A stretch of DNA of 64,000 nucleotides. It comes from Lytechinus pictus (Eukaryota). Below, piece after piece: positions 3,108-62,916 of the stretch. Each line of letters opens with the position of its first letter. Position 1 is the first letter of the stretch. The stretch spans positions 23,064,001-23,128,000 of the forward strand of contig NC_087246.1 in assembly GCF_037042905.1 (NCBI RefSeq), read 5' to 3'. The position numbers and the translations under genes were made by a program. The notes beneath the pieces are model-generated. The model was not told the DNA's origin. It ran no database searches and saw only the letters and a program-made list of their open reading frames with translations.

Positions 3108-3398
3108 GAATCAAGTGAAGCGGTGGTCCTGACTGTCGCCGTTCAGTCAGAGGGTCGTGGATTCGAATCCTACTACAGGTGTTAATTCCTTCATCAACAT
3201 ATTTCTCCACATTGGGTGCTCTCTACCCAAGCGAGGTGAATGGGTACCTGGTAGGAATTTTTTTCCTTGAACGCTTTAGTGCGTAATCATGACGACTCAG
3301 TTTTAGAGAAGGTAATGGTACGATACCAAGTATATTAGATTGTATCTGCGCTTTCCACATTTTGATAAATCGCAGTTTGGCCCGTTTATAAAAACATA
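3108..3398 (+). mobile_element. Degraded tRNA-derived SINE, related to the 45512 SINE
   Basis: B-box-like GGATTCGAATCC (3159-3170) preceded by CAGAGGGTCGTG as in the 45512 copy; core ACCCAAGCGAGGTGAATGGGTACCTGGTAGGA matches ACCCAGGTGCTAAATGGGTACCCGGTAGGA there; decayed GCGCTTT...TTTATAAAAA tail. Confidence 0.75.
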
Positions 3399-7874: not shown

Positions 7875-8071
7875 CACCCTAAAAACAGAGAGTGCAAAGT
7901 TACCCAATATTGGATAGAAAGTGAACAGGCATGTTTGCTGGGTAATTTTTCCCCAATATTAAATTTCAACGGGACATTGCGTAAAATTTACAAAATATTT
8001 AGTATGTTTTTACCCAACGAACAAGCATGTTCCCATTTTACCCAATATTGGGTACAACTTTTTTTAGAGTG
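7875..8071 (+). mobile_element. MITE with CAC...GTG ends and 2-bp TSD (CMC/EnSpm-like), family A
   Basis: Ends CACCCTAAAAA / TTTTTAGAGTG; AG on both flanks; internal TACCCAATATTGG repeats; homologous to 61633-61834 and 62738-62916. Confidence 0.8.
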
Positions 8072-45511: not shown

Positions 45512-45872
45512 GGAAGAGCCGTGGTGTAGTGGTTCTGACTCTCGCCTTGTAAACAGAGGGTCGTGTGTTCGAATCCCACCGCGGTCTAGCGTCCTTTGGC
45601 AAGGCGTTAATCCACACTTTGCCACTCTCGACCCAGGTGCTAAATGGGTACCCGGTAGGATGCGAAAGATATTGTATGTTTGATTTTGCCAGCGCCATAA
45701 TGAGGCTGCGATGAATGCAAGGAATGCTCCCCAGGGAGTGGAAACTGTGCACTTTTCGTGCGGGATTGAAATGAATCCAATGACCAGGGTAATAATATGC
45801 TGTAACGCGCTTTGAGCCATTCTGGGAAAAGCGCTTTATAAAAATTGGCTATTATTATAAAAATTGGCCATT
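45512..45872 (+). mobile_element. Full-length tRNA-derived SINE with CORE-like centre and L2-like tail
   Basis: A-box TGGTGTAGTGG (45522), B-box GTTCGAATCCC (45567); centre GTCCTTTGGCAAGGCGTTAATCC...AAATGGG resembles the MIR/CORE domain; tail TGTAACGCGCTTTGAG...AAAAGCGCTTTATAAAAATTGGCTATTATT resembles L2/MIR 3' ends; possible TSD ATGGT (45507 and 45873). Confidence 0.9.
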
Positions 45873-46982
45873 ATGGTATAGCTAACGCATGGAGATGTTC
45901 TTCCTTATAGAGCACAACCTCTGACTTGCGATGACCACCTATTTTTATTTATCTTACTGAATGAACAGATTCTCAGCATATCTTTTAAAAAATTGAAGTC
46001 AAGGAAAACAATACGTGGAGAGGGATTGAAACAGAAGAACCCACTAGCCGATTCCCTAATTCCCACGATCTAATCAATTGAAAAGTACGGCGAGCTCTTA
46101 TTTCATGTCAAACATTTGAGAGAACCCAGTGCTTCATGTGCCCTCCTGAATGTTCTCACTTTCAGGGGAGGCTCCAGATTCTCTTAATAAAAGGAGGTGT
46201 TGTAATCATTACGGAAATACATGTAGGCATACATGCTCTCTGACCTTCTGGGTATTCTCAATTGTCTTCTTTAATGCACCTATTCTCGTAACAGTATATT
46301 GAATGTCAAATTTAAAATGACTAGCGGCTCTTTATTTATGCTACTGGTGTCGCATAATGTAAAACACATCTATTCTCGTTGAATGTTACCCCTTCCGTTC
46401 ACCCCTCTTCCAAAATCTGAATGGCCCCAGGGTCCACGGTCTCATTCAAAGCGGGGTAGTATACCGTTTCACACACGTACATCGGATTAAAGAATGATGT
46501 TAATTAAGCAATGCTGAAAAGCCTAGATTTATACGACGAAAGGATAGGTCCAGACGGTGTAAACATAGATCCGGCTGACGGCCAAAAAGGCGGAAATTAG
46601 GAAGGAAGAACTAGGTTAGGCGCATGTTCCAGGGTGCAATCATTTACTCCGTAAATTGGCAACTCTCGCTGGGTATCATGCGCGGGAAAGAATGCTTGTA
46701 TGTTGGTGATCAGCACGTAAATGTATATCTGAGTTAGGATAAATGTGAGGGAAATGTGACATCTCCTGGCAGATTTCATCCGTAGAAATCAGTAAATCGT
46801 GCCGTTTCGCCTGTTATGGAGATCAATAACCAAAATGGATAATGAAGAGGACAAATAAGTGTAGTACGGCCTACGACAGCAGGTTGATGCATATTTATAG
46901 TGTTGTAAAGTAAATTATAATGCATATTTTGTCATGTTTGTTGTTAGAATTGTTAATGTACCGAGTTTTGAAGCAGTATTAT

Positions 46983-47448
46983 GGTGTCACGCGCGTAAAA
47001 CATTCCCCATAGACTTGTGTGTTAGAATGGCACTTTTGAAAAATTCATAAAAAATAAATGTGAAATTAGAGGGTGTAATGTTTACTACCAATGGATAGGA
47101 TATATATCTGACGTTCCAAATCTGACCAGGAAAGGGTACCGTAGCCAGCTCATTTTAAAAATAAATCGCCATTTGTGAAGATAACTATGAATCGATCGAA
47201 TTCATCAACTGGAGCAGTAAAATAGCCCTAATTATTCCGCCAGTCAAAAAATAGTTCCAAGTCACTTATTTATCTTCCCAATTTGGGCAAAGTAAGTTCA
47301 GTAGTTACCATTTCTAGAATCAGTGTTAGATTTTGAATCACATTCATACATTTTTGTCAATCAGCAATATCAAATTGACAAAAATTCGAATGGGTTGGGT
47401 CGAACGAATATCTTTAGCCCTCCTGATGTAATTAGGCTCGTGGAACCT
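46983..47448 (+). mobile_element. ~465-bp non-autonomous DNA element, copy 1
   Basis: Imperfect TIRs GGTGTCACGCGCGTAA / TTAGGCTCGTGGAACC; differs from copy 2 by only two substitutions and one A indel by my alignment. Confidence 0.9.
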
Positions 47449-48421
47449 ATATTATATGACCTATGTATTTTATTTTTTTGAATAGCTACTTTGCTATTCT
47501 TTTATATCTGTACACTCACACTAGCACAAAGAAATGCATTGAAAATTCCTATTTTCTATGCAATGACCCATTTTAATGTGTTACCCATACATGTTATTTT
47601 CACTATATATGGATGTATACAAATCCTACCTGCATAAAGACCAACAGTGAATGCAATGACAATATAGGTCCCTATCAATTGTAATATAAAGGTGTATGTA
47701 AATTCTGTGTAGATATCAGGATACCAGAACTGCCCCAAACATAATTACCAAATATACATGAGATTGGATGAGGAAGCAATAAAAGAATGACATACTACTT
47801 TAGTATATTTGCATTTCCTAGGGCTGTTGTCTCTCAGATGTAAGAAGGAAGAGATACATAAATAGAGAGAGAGAAAGAGAAGGAGAGAGAGAGAAAGAAA
47901 AATAATTTTATAGATGGCATGGCCTAATAAAGAGAGGGGGGGGGCTATTCTAAGATTGCAGCACACAGCCACCCCCCCTCCCTCCTTAGTTGAGCACTAT
48001 TAGATACCTTACCTTACTCTGTACCCTTTTCTAAATACCTTCTTGAAGGTACCACTCTAGTTCTCTTCAGTAAAGTTCTCAAAGTTCTATCTCCTCTCTA
48101 CCTACCCCCTTCCTAAGAACAATTTTAACATGAGCAATTTCTACAGGTCTTTCTAATGCTAAGTAGGTGATGTACACTAACACAAATCAATGATAAATCA
48201 GAACATAAAGAGGCCTTGACTATATACATTGACCAGTCTACATACATTCCTAGGCTACACAGACCTACTAACTTTACCTGATGTAGCCCTGCTAGCCATT
48301 AAATCAATTTTTTTGCACCACTTGATGACTAAACATATTGATATCAGTGAGAAATTGTTTGCTACTGAAGAGTTTGGCCAGGTATTCCATCCACTACTAG
48401 GGATTTCCCATATTACTTACA

Positions 48422-48886
48422 GGTGTCACGCGCGTAAAACATTCCCCATAGACTTGTGTGCTAGAATGGCACTTTTGAAAAATTCATAAAAAATAAATGT
48501 GAAATTAGAGGGTGTAATGTTTACTACCAATGGATAGGATATATATCTGACGTTCCAAATCTGACCAGGAAAGGGTACCGTAGCCAGCTCATTTTAAAAT
48601 AAATCGCCATTTATGAAGATAACTATGAATCGATCGAATTCATCAACTGGAGCAGTAAAATAGCCCTAATTATTCCGCCAGTCAAAAAATAGTTCCAAGT
48701 CACTTATTTATCTTCCCAATTTGGGCAAAGTAAGTTCAGTAGTTACCATTTCTAGAATCAGTGTTAGATTTTGAATCACATTCATACATTTTTGTCAATC
48801 AGCAATATCAAATTGACAAAAATTCGAATGGGTTGGGTCGAACGAATATCTTTAGCCCTCCTGATGTAATTAGGCTCGTGGAACCT
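48422..48886 (+). mobile_element. ~465-bp non-autonomous DNA element, copy 2 (direct repeat of copy 1)
   Basis: Same sequence as 46983-47448 (~99% identical), different flanks. Confidence 0.9.
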
Positions 48887-51749
48887 TATTATGAGAGGAA
48901 GATGGGCTAAGATGAAAACTGGTGAGAAAGCTTAAGAGGAAGGATAACATGTACTGAGAGAGGTATTAAGCAAGAGAGAGAGAGGAAGGGGGGGGGTGAA
49001 AGAAGTGACGGGGAGTACTGAAAACAGAGCTGAGTAGCCTTGCCATTATCATTGTCATCACCCTGCGTATTTGAGTAGCACGCTTTACATTCAATAACGA
49101 ACGCCCATCCATCAATATGATTAATGTACTATGTGTGGTTGACAACTTGTAGGGCTCACAGTTACGGCTCATAACCATCCAATAACAAAAAGAGCTTCTA
49201 TTCAAGTTCTATCCAAATTTTTATACACACACACAAACCCACCCTCACCCTCACCCTTAAGCTCCCACGCACACAAATCATTATTCATCCGTGTGAATTA
49301 TTGTCCGCTGAACAAGTCAAATCTCGTAGTTTACTAGGGTAATTTAGCGGAAAATTGTTGAACGTAAACGAAATAGTACATAGGCCTACCATAGAATAGT
49401 TAAAGCCGACATGCTGGAACACACTGCTTTTTCATTGCAAATTCGTTCATGAATAAAGAGGCTTAAATAATCATGTACTGATTATGAACCAAGGATCCAT
49501 GTGATGTAAACGATTTGGGGGGGGGGGGGGGATTTTGTCCACAAATTTAAACAAGTCATGCAGGTATAGACTTTGATTCTCATGAACAAGTTTTAAGCTT
49601 TACCTAACACTATTATGACCCGACAGTGCTCATACAATATCATTGTCACTGAGGAAATATTTAATAATGTAATTTCCATTGGGTGATTGAGACGCGTGCA
49701 TTTTATCAATGAATCATGCAATATCGACTCATAAAAGACTTCTCTTACGAAAAACAATCTGGACGCGTCCGATTGTCAGGCATGCGATTGATTATGATTT
49801 TCTTCATTTTTTAATTTTTTTTTCTTTACAATACACGCATTTATAGGCGAATTCCGAAATTTGTGCCACAGCCTATGAGACAAGTTTGTCTTGTCCCCTT
49901 TAAAAAGACAAGAAATCAAAAGAAATCGTCGAGTATGTACACGTCCGCTCATCAGAGATGACCGGTTTGAAAAAAAGCGAAGTAAAAAAAATCATGACAA
50001 TAAACCATTATGACACAATATTATTCGATAGTTGGCTTTGCTACAATCAAGAACCACCCGAAAACGAGTGAGTTAATGGGAATAATAAATGTATATTTCA
50101 TTCCTAATCTACTTCAAACATTCAATCTTTCCACGGAGATGATTGAAAGGAAATAGTTTGAACCCTTCTCTTGATGTACTATCGTCCGTAGATATGAACT
50201 GATTATTACAGTCGGAATGATTAGATATACTTCAGCCCTGTACTTCGTAGAAACATAACACACACAAGAGATAGAAACGGGTCACGCTATGCCCACAACG
50301 CTTTTTGGCATAAATATTTAATTAAAAGTAGACTATCCGACTAGCAGACTATAGAAGCAAGGTCAATGATATTCTCCGTAAGGTGATGTGCTATATCAAT
50401 TAGGACGGAAGATCGTCATTTAATTCTCATCTATAAAGTACATGAAACGAACTAATCTATGATTTCATGGACAAGCTTTCTCAAGAGAACACTTCATTTC
50501 TGCAGTCCTCTCCGAATACCCTCATATTTTAATCATTATCAACTATCTTTTCGATTATGAATCTGACAAAGTAATGATCAATTGCCTCAAGCAATGTGTA
50601 AATTTGACACAACAGTTAATTGTTTGCGTACAACTCGTGAATGTGGGATTATGTAATTATGAATGTTTGCGGAAAATCTTGTATCGATCTCTTCGACTTT
50701 GAAAGTTACTTTTACATCACGTCGTTTTGAAAGAGCTCAAAGCCGTCGGTACCCTAGTTTCCTACTTTTTAAAAAATAAAAATACTTGAGAATAACAAGG
50801 AAACATGTTCAAATTCATTAATTGCCCAACAATATGTGTGGACTCTCTCTGATTGAGTGTTATGTATAGCTAGTCTAAAATATACCTTTTGAGACAATAC
50901 ATACATGTACATAATTATATTAGCCTATAATTTGCATGTGAAAGCAAAGGAGAGGAAAGGTACTTGTTTTGCTAATTGGTAGTTGTGCTATGAATGTGTT
51001 GAATAGTGAATTACAATGAAGTATGATAATAATTCAAGCCCGCCCGTACCCCGGTACAAGACAACATTGCTTAGCATGATGCATTATGGGTTAGGGACTT
51101 GGCCAGATTTGACTAGTTTTTTTAATAAAAAGACACAAAAAGAGAAAAAAAGAGGGTGCTATATGCTGAATTGAAATTCTAACGGCTGATAACACATTCA
51201 ATGACCACTGCACTTGTGTAATATTGAAATGATTTGATTTGATTAATTTTAATTGTTTTCTTCTGCATTCATATCAATCCGAATAAAATATTTAGATATA
51301 TTTCAGCGTGGAATGTTATACAATACTCGAGTATAATTCACATTACCGGTTAGTTATCATAGCTTAGATGGGCTTTAAACTTAATATTTAGTACTTTTAA
51401 ATAATTTATATTTGGTATTGAAATGTCAATGTACTTTTTTCTGGGGCGTGTTTCAAAAAGCCGTTCGTAATGTTACGCATCACTTCAGGAAGGATACGGC
51501 AAGCAACTTAGGCGTATTAATCAGTTTAGATTGAACTAGGTCAAGTTGATATATGCGAAAATGTTATCTAATAATGATTCCATTCAGACACACTTTTTAA
51601 GTAATATGATGTAACATCGTAGATGAATTTCACACTTCAGAAATGCGGTCGGATATTATTTTGGCGCTTAAATCCCGGTCGCTAATAAACAAAAATGCGT
51701 AAATTGACGAAGGGTTTTTTGAAGCATATCCACGATAGAATTTCCTTTT

Positions 51750-61632: not shown

Positions 61633-61834
61633 CATCTAAAAAAAAGTTTACCCAATATTGGGTAAAATGGGAACATGTATGTTTGTTGGGTAAAAAGATA
61701 CCAAAGATTTTGTAAATTTTACGCAATGATGCATTGAAAATTACCCTTAAAACATGCATTGGGGTTACCTAGCAAACATGCATGTTCCCTTTCTACCCAA
61801 TATTGGGTAATTTTTTAATCAATGTTTTAATGTG
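61633..61834 (-). mobile_element. Family A MITE, opposite orientation
   Basis: Reverse complement of the 7875 and 62738 elements (TTTACCCAATATTGGGTAAAATGGGAACATG...); TA on both flanks. Confidence 0.8.
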
Positions 61835-62737: not shown

Positions 62738-62916
62738 CACTCTAAAAACACTGAGTAAAATTTTACCCAATATTGGATAGAAAGGGAACATGCATGTTTG
62801 ATGGGTATTTTTTTTATCTCATATTGGGCTATTTCAACGCAACATTGCGTAAAATTTACCAAACCAGCATGCATGTTCCCATTTTACCCAATATTGGGTA
62901 AACCTTTTTTAGAGTG
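62738..62916 (+). mobile_element. Family A MITE with 2-bp TSD (TT)
   Basis: CACTCTAAAAA / TTTTTAGAGTG perfect ends; TT on both flanks. Confidence 0.85.

What the first reader, a model, noticed from the sequence alone, without database searches (positions are those of the whole stretch)
47449..48421. CpG-free ~970-bp island between the twin elements: signature of a methylated origin
Seen: I find no CG dinucleotide in 47449-48421 although C and G are both common (roughly two dozen or more expected from composition), while the elements themselves and the flanks (e.g. 46500-46900) contain many CpGs. Known: invertebrate CpG methylation is mosaic and concentrated in gene bodies, which lose CpG over time. 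Inference: this segment evolved in a methylated gene body elsewhere and was relocated into this CpG-retaining region, independent support for cargo transduction.
Basis: partly seen in the sequence, partly recalled or inferred. Interest (0 to 1): 0.7.

Follow-up and report, generated by a model that had tools for sequence, protein, structure and literature searches.

The report
CpG-free core of a KolobokP transposon
The CpG-free stretch is real, but it is the standard middle part of a jumping-DNA family with hundreds of copies in this genome, matching by eye one published in 2022, not a captured piece of a host gene; its missing CpGs were likely eroded by methylation during the element's own history.

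Summary
Confirmed: 0 CpG in 47448-48421 against 31 expected. But the segment is not unique cargo. With its two 465-bp flanking repeats it forms a 1,903-bp LTDR-INT-LTDR element with a TTAT target duplication. The genome holds 507 exact repeat-core junctions, as monomers and tandem arrays. By eye it is the published non-autonomous family KolobokP-N2_LyPi (PMC9587614 supplement). Six of 8 segments of the core align, in order, to the two ends of the internal region of an autonomous KolobokP copy that encodes a transposase and a His-Me nuclease. So it is an internal-deletion derivative. CpG poverty is a family trait: 81 of 127 distinct cores have none, and five autonomous relatives have internal regions at o/e 0.29-0.36 against 0.54-0.66 in their repeats. 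Methylation of the element's own interior is the likely cause (inferred; no methylation data). Host-gene transduction is not supported. The CpG split is not in the paper's main text. The scan noted KolobokP before on other DNA of this genome.

The parts
46979..46982 (+). Left target-site duplication, TTAT
   Evidence: Identical to the 4 bp after the right end; 33 of 43 LTDR-INT-LTDR units examined have an exact 4-bp duplication
46983..47447 (+). Left long terminal direct repeat (LTDR), 465 bp, GG...CC ends, imperfect 16-bp terminal inverted repeat (12 of 16 match), 13 CpG
   Evidence: matches the published KolobokP-N2_LyPi LTDR text by eye; 91% identical to the LTDRs of autonomous copy L112
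47448..48421 (+). Internal region (INT), 974 bp, starts TATA and ends TACA, no coding capacity found, 0 CpG: the finding
   Evidence: matches the published KolobokP-N2_LyPi INT text by eye; 40 further matches at 93% listed
47448..47944 (+). 5' half of INT: homologue of the first ~507 bp (non-coding leader) of the autonomous internal region
   Evidence: Score 223 against at most 41 in 20 shuffles; four sub-segments reached by 0, 0, 0 and 1 of 100 dinucleotide shuffles against L112
48019..48142 (-). Likely decayed start of the His-Me nuclease gene (DNA-level match to -454..-350 from the autonomous INT end)
   Evidence: 0 of 100 shuffles against L112 but 80 of 100 against L114; the protein-level match is not significant for this copy, 53 of 200 shuffles; the ORF start lies 354 bp from the INT end in L112
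48248..48421 (+). 3' end of INT: homologue of the last ~200 bp of the autonomous internal region
   Evidence: z 22.6 against L112 and 17.4 against L114, 0 of 100 shuffles each
48422..48885 (+). Right LTDR, 464 bp, 13 CpG; 2 substitutions and one 1-bp indel from the left copy
48886..48889 (+). Right target-site duplication, TTAT

Best explanation
The segment is the internal region of a young 1.9-kb non-autonomous KolobokP DNA transposon, most of it derived from the two ends of an autonomous element's internal region, and it likely lacks CpG because the interior of this transposon lineage was methylated for a long time while its terminal repeats kept their CpGs. Shown: the LTDR-INT-LTDR anatomy, the target duplication, the copy number, homology to the autonomous interior, CpG poverty across the family and its autonomous relatives, and new CpGs accumulating in cores after insertion. 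Inferred: mobilisation in trans by the autonomous transposase; methylation and deamination as the cause of the loss; that the 5' half inherited its void while the 3' half lost CpG after the deletion; and that the repeats keep CpG because they act as promoter or protein-binding DNA.
For: Identity: published family is 1904 bp with LTDRs of 465/464, TSD 4 and TIR 16; the window copy is 1903 bp, 465/464, TTAT/TTAT. Counts in the genome: 1006 exact LTDR 5' ends and 507 exact LTDR-INT junctions. Ancestry: autonomous copy L112 (4957 bp) has PF20700 at E 2e-44 and PF05551 at E 5e-11, and 6 of 8 core segments align to it in order. Family-wide void: 76 CpG against 3886 expected in 127 distinct cores, many of them array siblings. 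Five autonomous copies (L111-L114, L116; three families judged by their repeats): first 800 bp of INT o/e 0.04-0.16, whole INT 0.29-0.36, LTDR 0.54-0.66. Transposase CpG across codon positions 3-1 is o/e 0.11, 0.18 and 0.42 in L112, L114 and L116, so the loss reaches silent coding sites. Methylation-type mutation acts on the family: private transitions at LTDR CpGs run 3.6-fold (p 0.003, right repeats) and 2.4-fold (p 0.13, left repeats) above other C/G sites. The genome has CpG-poor domains: 99 of 400 windows below o/e 0.5. Of 19 CpG positions in 43 cores, 16 are private to one copy, and CpG number rises with an age proxy (rho 0.66 over 42). Echinoderm methylation is bimodal and highest in gene bodies and repeats, lowest at promoters (PMC12550476, passages).
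Against: No methylation data were seen. TpG is only mildly raised (1.19) and CpA not at all (1.02), against a background of 1.17 and 1.15, so the expected product excess is missing. Zero is more extreme than the CpG-poor 10-kb background stretches (o/e 0.35-0.5); even o/e 0.2 gives P(0)=0.002. Site-by-site loss in the 3' half is weak: 0 of 17 L112 CpGs are CpG in the window core and 6 read CA, TG or TA, but only 4 of 21 GpCs are kept and the alignment is 50% identical. LTDR CpGs are themselves hypermutable after insertion, so the repeats are not simply unmethylated. That excess did not depend on flank CpG level (p 0.58). Another KolobokP lineage in the same genome is little depleted (L108 INT o/e 0.72; L106 transposase 0.78). 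In two RNA runs the autonomous transposase ORF had near-zero depth, which gives no support to transcription-coupled methylation; those reads were mostly under 95% alike and only about 6% of each run was read.
Confidence: 0.68

Rival explanations
1. Same element and ancestry, but CpG is kept out of the core by selection: copies whose interior gains CpG are silenced or transpose and multimerise less, so the source copies stay CpG-free.
For: The young and older subfamilies differ at about 9% of core sites yet only 1 CpG is shared by a whole subfamily. 11 of 188 private changes create CpG (3 of 100 and 8 of 88), which predicts about 5 (my arithmetic; Poisson P about 0.04). CpG gains after insertion are near neutral in older copies (4 against 4.5 expected). 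There is no TpG/CpA excess. PMC8857917 (abstract and passages) reports that methylation targets young transposons in cnidarians.
Against: Fast deamination in methylated source copies predicts the same pattern. The deficit of CpG-creating transitions fell from p 0.0016 (array copies and gap-near columns included) to p 0.09 (filtered). The repeats carry 13 CpG each without evident cost, and the L106/L108 lineage thrives with CpG-rich interiors.
Confidence: 0.2
2. The whole element is methylated about evenly, or passes often through methylated gene bodies. All CpGs decay, and those in the repeats survive only through purifying selection on transposase or transcription-factor sites.
For: LTDR CpGs are hypermutable after insertion: 23 of 56 left-versus-right transitions touch a CpG, gains and losses pooled. 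Autonomous LTDRs are partly depleted, o/e 0.54-0.66.
Against: Insertions lie mostly in CpG-retaining DNA (median flank o/e 0.79; 8 of 43 below 0.5). A 2- to 4-fold excess is small for full methylation. It would need about 13 CpGs per repeat all to be constrained.
Confidence: 0.08
3. One reading: a piece of a methylated host gene body was captured between two mobile repeats and carried here.
For: The host genome has CpG-free runs of this length (one of 984 bp in 400 kb). About 180 bp of the core remain unassigned. The own-genome search scored only 40 of 1257 candidates, so a diverged donor was not excluded by search.
Against: Both ends and most of the length align in order to the autonomous interior. 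The unassigned 700-810 piece lies between two matched segments at the expected spacing. The core has the family's TATA/TACA ends and fixed boundaries in all 28 young units listed (TACA or TAAA).
Confidence: 0.03
4. Misassembly: a foreign contig joined through the repeat.
For: Long repeats can cause false joins; no long reads spanning this site were seen.
Against: The outer 4-bp duplication is exact, the two repeats differ at 3 positions, and the same unit was published from another analysis.
Confidence: 0.01

Closest known systems
KolobokP-N2_LyPi, non-autonomous KolobokP family described from the painted urchin Lytechinus pictus (Kojima and Bao 2022, PMC9587614, Table S1 and Data S1)
   Same: Length 1904 against 1903 bp, LTDR 465/464, 4-bp TSD, 16-bp TIR; LTDR and INT text match the window by eye, including the INT's first and last letters.
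   Different: Only copy-level differences; copies here are about 93% identical to the window core including microsatellite indels. The paper lists 313 LTDR and 156 INT copies; this assembly gives 1006 and 507 exact motif counts. The main text has 0 occurrences of 'CpG' or 'methyl'. The match to the published sequence was read by eye, not computed.
KolobokP-1_LyPi, autonomous partner (4984 bp in Table S1)
   Same: L112 is 4957 bp with LTDRs 91% identical to the window's, a PF20700 transposase and an opposite-strand PF05551 His-Me nuclease. Its INT ends are homologous to the core.
   Different: The window element lacks about 3 kb including both genes. The L112 transposase is split over two frames, so that copy is not an intact source. 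INT homology is distant, 50-61% in alignment, so the core split off long before the LTDRs did.
TRIM / tandem-array TRIM non-autonomous LTR retrotransposons (discussed in PMC9587614; defining features recalled)
   Same: Two direct repeats around a short non-coding core, solo repeats, and tandem arrays that share a repeat.
   Different: Ends are GG...CC with a 16-bp inverted repeat, not TG...CA. I saw no primer-binding site or polypurine tract on reading the junctions. The autonomous relative encodes a DDE transposase and a nuclease; no reverse transcriptase family was hit in its two proteins scanned.

Membership tests
KolobokP | [quoted passage not shown] | tested here: met
   465 and 464 bp, 3 differences
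KolobokP | Each LTDR has 5'-RR...YY-3' ends and its own short (11-18 bp) terminal inverted repeat | tested here: met
   GG...CC; 12 of 16 match
KolobokP | Short (3-5 bp) target-site duplication without strong sequence preference | tested here: met
   TTAT here; 33 of 43 units have an exact 4-bp TSD of varied sequence (one of the 43, L104, is really part of a dimer)
KolobokP | Solo LTDRs and (LTDR-INT)n-LTDR multimers | tested here: met
   14 of 20 LTDRs sorted as core-free have a 4-bp TSD; four of the other six belong to full elements. Arrays with period about 1442-1460 bp
KolobokP | INT-INT junctions with a few bases lost where an LTDR was excised | tested here: met
   12 junction matches in 9 partly overlapping loci, each with one 4-bp end instead of two
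KolobokP | [quoted passage not shown] | tested here: met
   Met in relatives L112 and L114. Absent from the window copy, as expected for a non-autonomous member (longest ORF 89 aa)
KolobokP-N2_LyPi | Sequence identity to the published consensus | tested here: met
   By eye on supplement passages plus four matching size features; no computed alignment
KolobokP | Transposition in trans by the autonomous transposase | not testable with these tools
   Inferred from shared termini and TSD length
TRIM (LTR retrotransposon) | TG...CA termini, primer-binding site, polypurine tract | tested here: not met
   Termini are GG...CC; no PBS or PPT seen by reading the junctions
   6 of 8 segments trace to the autonomous interior; about 180 bp unassigned

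The most novel reading that the evidence does not exclude
One KolobokP lineage carries a built-in CpG architecture like a miniature host gene: CpG-keeping terminal repeats around an interior that is actively held CpG-free in the copies that propagate, either because the element draws methylation onto its own interior wherever it sits (for example in its tandem arrays) or because CpG-free interiors escape silencing. The 974-bp core would be the end state, and the CpG-rich L106/L108 lineage in the same genome a natural control.
Probability: 0.3. Interest if true: 0.55.

Novelty: already known. Interest (0 to 1): 0.27.

Why it matters
As an element it is ordinary: one young copy of a family published in 2022. 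What is left is the sharp split between CpG-free interior and CpG-keeping repeats, shared with autonomous relatives and absent from a second lineage in the same genome. Whether invertebrate methylation targets transposons directly or only through gene bodies is debated (PMC8857917, passages). A family with hundreds of copies, mostly in CpG-retaining DNA, in monomer and array form, makes that testable with existing long-read methylation methods. It is also a caution: a CpG-free island between twin repeats need not mean captured host DNA.

Tried and rejected
Rfam scan of 46500-49400: 8 weak microRNA matches, all far below gathering scores, so no snRNA or rRNA array. ORFs over the element: none above 89 aa. 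Pattern was miscounted by one base; no information. A pattern for the autonomous LTDR-INT junction found nothing; autonomous copies were then found through PF05551 (110 matches). A search with L112's 3' interior listed only itself and one tandem family among 40 of 106 candidates scored. A tree-based mapping of changes was not obtained, so old and recent changes are separated only by private alleles and left-right differences. The protein-level nuclease remnant is not significant in this copy. No dependence of LTDR CpG decay on flank CpG level. Sequencing runs: no RNA holder listed. Two raw RNA runs laid on the element gave mean depth about 50-110 on the LTDR and 0-29 on the INT, 55-57% of reads ran on into unlike sequence and most were under 95% alike, so they mainly reflect other family members; 15 and 14 reads crossed an INT-end/LTDR junction. 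Two metagenome scans for KolobokP loci of other hosts found none, so no cross-species CpG count was made; 21 homologous proteins came without DNA. By eye, supplement passages of about 600 letters looked CpG-poor for some bivalve INTs and CpG-rich for amphioxus and starfish ones (not counted, a lead only). Not in print as far as searched: 'KolobokP' gives 2 papers (the second seen only as a listing), and searches listed no paper on CpG content inside KolobokP; subscription papers are not covered. Supplement file 3 was seen only in passages, and files 2 and 4 were not searched for CpG or methylation.

Full report
Observation. The segment 47449-48421 has no CG against 30.9 expected. The gap between successive CGs is 990 bp and the next longest in the window is 434 bp. 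The window averages o/e 0.80, each flanking repeat has 13 CpG, and GpC in the segment is normal. In 400 kb of background taken at 40 evenly chosen places, 0 of 400 1-kb windows had zero CpG, 3 were below o/e 0.1 and 99 below 0.5. One unrelated 984-bp CpG-free run occurred. So the genome is mosaic, and the feature is real and rare.

What it is. A search of the own genome with the segment listed 41 matches from 40 of 1257 candidates scored: itself and 40 others at 93%, nearly all in tandem arrays with a period near 1442 bp. The repeat gave the same picture on many contigs. Parsing the loci showed a fixed unit: a 465-bp repeat with GG...CC ends, a 958-1008-bp core that starts TATA and ends TACA or TAAA, and the repeat again. 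In the window the unit spans 46983-48885 (1903 bp) between two TTAT copies, and the repeats differ at 3 positions. Exact patterns count 1006 repeat 5' ends and 507 repeat-core junctions. Of 43 repeat-core-repeat units with non-core flanks, 33 have an exact 4-bp duplication (L104 is in fact part of a dimer and was dropped only). Solo repeats with duplications (14 of 20 sorted as core-free) and core-core junctions lacking one 4-bp end also occur.

Known family. This anatomy is that of KolobokP (PMC9587614; I read parts 1-4 of 6 of the text, and passages of supplements 1 and 3). Table S1 lists KolobokP-N2_LyPi at 1904 bp, LTDR 465/464, TSD 4, TIR 16. Its LTDR and internal sequence match the window by eye; I could not align them by program. 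The main text does not contain 'CpG' or 'methyl'.

Where the core comes from. A PF05551 search gave 110 matches, many in tandem arrays. Locus L112 holds a 4957-bp element with LTDRs 91% identical to the window's, a PF20700 transposase and an opposite-strand His-Me nuclease. Core positions 1-497 align to its internal positions 1-507 (score 223, shuffles at most 41). In a segment test against 100 dinucleotide shuffles, 6 of 8 segments matched L112 in order (0 or 1 shuffle reaching the score); segments 500-570 and 700-810 did not. Against the more distant L114, 5 of 8 matched. The core is therefore an old internal-deletion derivative, with about 180 bp unassigned. A nuclease remnant is suggested at DNA level but is not significant as protein in this copy.

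CpG is a lineage trait. Of 127 distinct cores, 81 have no CpG and the pooled count is 76 against 3886 expected; many are array siblings. Five autonomous copies of the related group have INT o/e 0.29-0.36, 0.04-0.16 in the first 800 bp, 0.39-0.79 in the last 500 bp, and 0.54-0.66 in the LTDR (boundaries taken from self-BLAST, a few bases uncertain). Transposase CpG across codon positions 3-1 is 0.11, 0.18 and 0.42 in L112, L114 and L116, but 0.72 in L106, whose lineage (L108, 70% and tandem relatives apart) has INT o/e 0.72. So the 5' half of the core descends from DNA that is already nearly CpG-free in autonomous elements. The 3' half descends from DNA that has 17 CpG in L112 and none here, but the alignment is only 50% identical and the GpC control is barely better kept (4 of 21), so loss in place is suggested, not shown.

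Recent dynamics. Among real copies, private transitions at LTDR CpGs are 3.6-fold (p 0.003) and 2.4-fold (p 0.13) above other C/G sites in right and left repeats, so methylation-type mutation reaches at least some copies. It did not track flank CpG level (p 0.58). In cores, CpGs arise after insertion: 16 of 19 positions are private and counts rise with an age proxy (rho 0.66). A deficit of CpG-creating transitions seen at first (3 of 122 against 54 of 472 sites, p 0.0016) weakened to p 0.09 once arrays and gap-near columns were removed, and was absent in older copies. Yet subfamilies 9% apart share only 1 CpG where about 5 would be expected from the private rate (my arithmetic, P about 0.04). 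The void is thus a property of the propagating lineage and is not maintained in dead copies.

Mechanism. Most likely the interior of this lineage behaved like a methylated gene body, with CpG lost by deamination over many rounds of copying, while the repeats, which would hold promoter and binding sites, kept theirs. This fits echinoderm methylation being high in gene bodies and repeats and low at promoters (PMC12550476, passages). It is inferred: I saw no methylation data, TpG and CpA are not above background, zero is more extreme than typical CpG-poor host DNA, and two RNA runs of a diverged genotype showed almost no reads on the transposase. Selection against CpG in source copies is the main rival; even methylation with constrained repeats is a second. 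Host-cargo transduction and misassembly are unlikely.

Verdict. Observation confirmed, interpretation partly supported. The element is already known. The CpG split inside it was not found in print in my searches and is a modest, testable lead. Interest 0.27.

Noticed in passing
L086, L138, L139 (G000:C2:67.63-67.66 Mb): A non-LTR retrotransposon with long open frames (392 aa and 1266 aa; endonuclease and reverse transcriptase by Pfam) sits inside the core at about position 505-519 and was multiplied with the KolobokP array (period about 6725 bp, 4 junctions listed). It keeps much of its CpG. This is a real case of cargo amplified by the array.
   Followed up: partly
L215 (G000:C10:15,000,001-15,010,000): A satellite of about 574 bp whose unit contains about 200 bp 75-84% like the 5' part of the LTDR; possibly a satellite born from a KolobokP repeat.
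   Followed up: no
L106, L107 and contigs C109, C157, C174, C200, C214, C219, C273, C361: Long, nearly identical tandem arrays of autonomous KolobokP units (periods about 4348 and 4461 bp) with open 696-723-aa transposase frames in the units read; several unplaced contigs appear to consist of them.
   Followed up: partly
L106, L108: A second KolobokP lineage whose interior is little CpG-depleted (INT o/e 0.72; transposase 0.78), perhaps a more recent arrival in this genome.
   Followed up: partly
L222:7124-8107 (G000:C1, near 13.007 Mb): A 984-bp CpG-free run unrelated to the element, partly made of short inverted and tandem repeats.
   Followed up: partly
L226, L228, L237: A dispersed tandem repeat of about 150 bp, CpG-poor in the copy read, shared by 3 of the 40 background stretches in the part of the output shown.
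   Followed up: no
window 45529-45579 and 3123-3173: Two 80%-identical copies of a sequence that looks like the tRNA-type head of a SINE (the label is my reading).
   Followed up: no
window 7875-8070, 61635-61828, 62738-62910: Several copies of one small inverted-repeat (MITE-like) family.
   Followed up: no
LTDR versus INT across families: The window's LTDR is 91% identical to the autonomous one while the INT ends are only 50-61% identical in alignment, which suggests that LTDRs are exchanged or renewed faster than the cores they flank.
   Followed up: no
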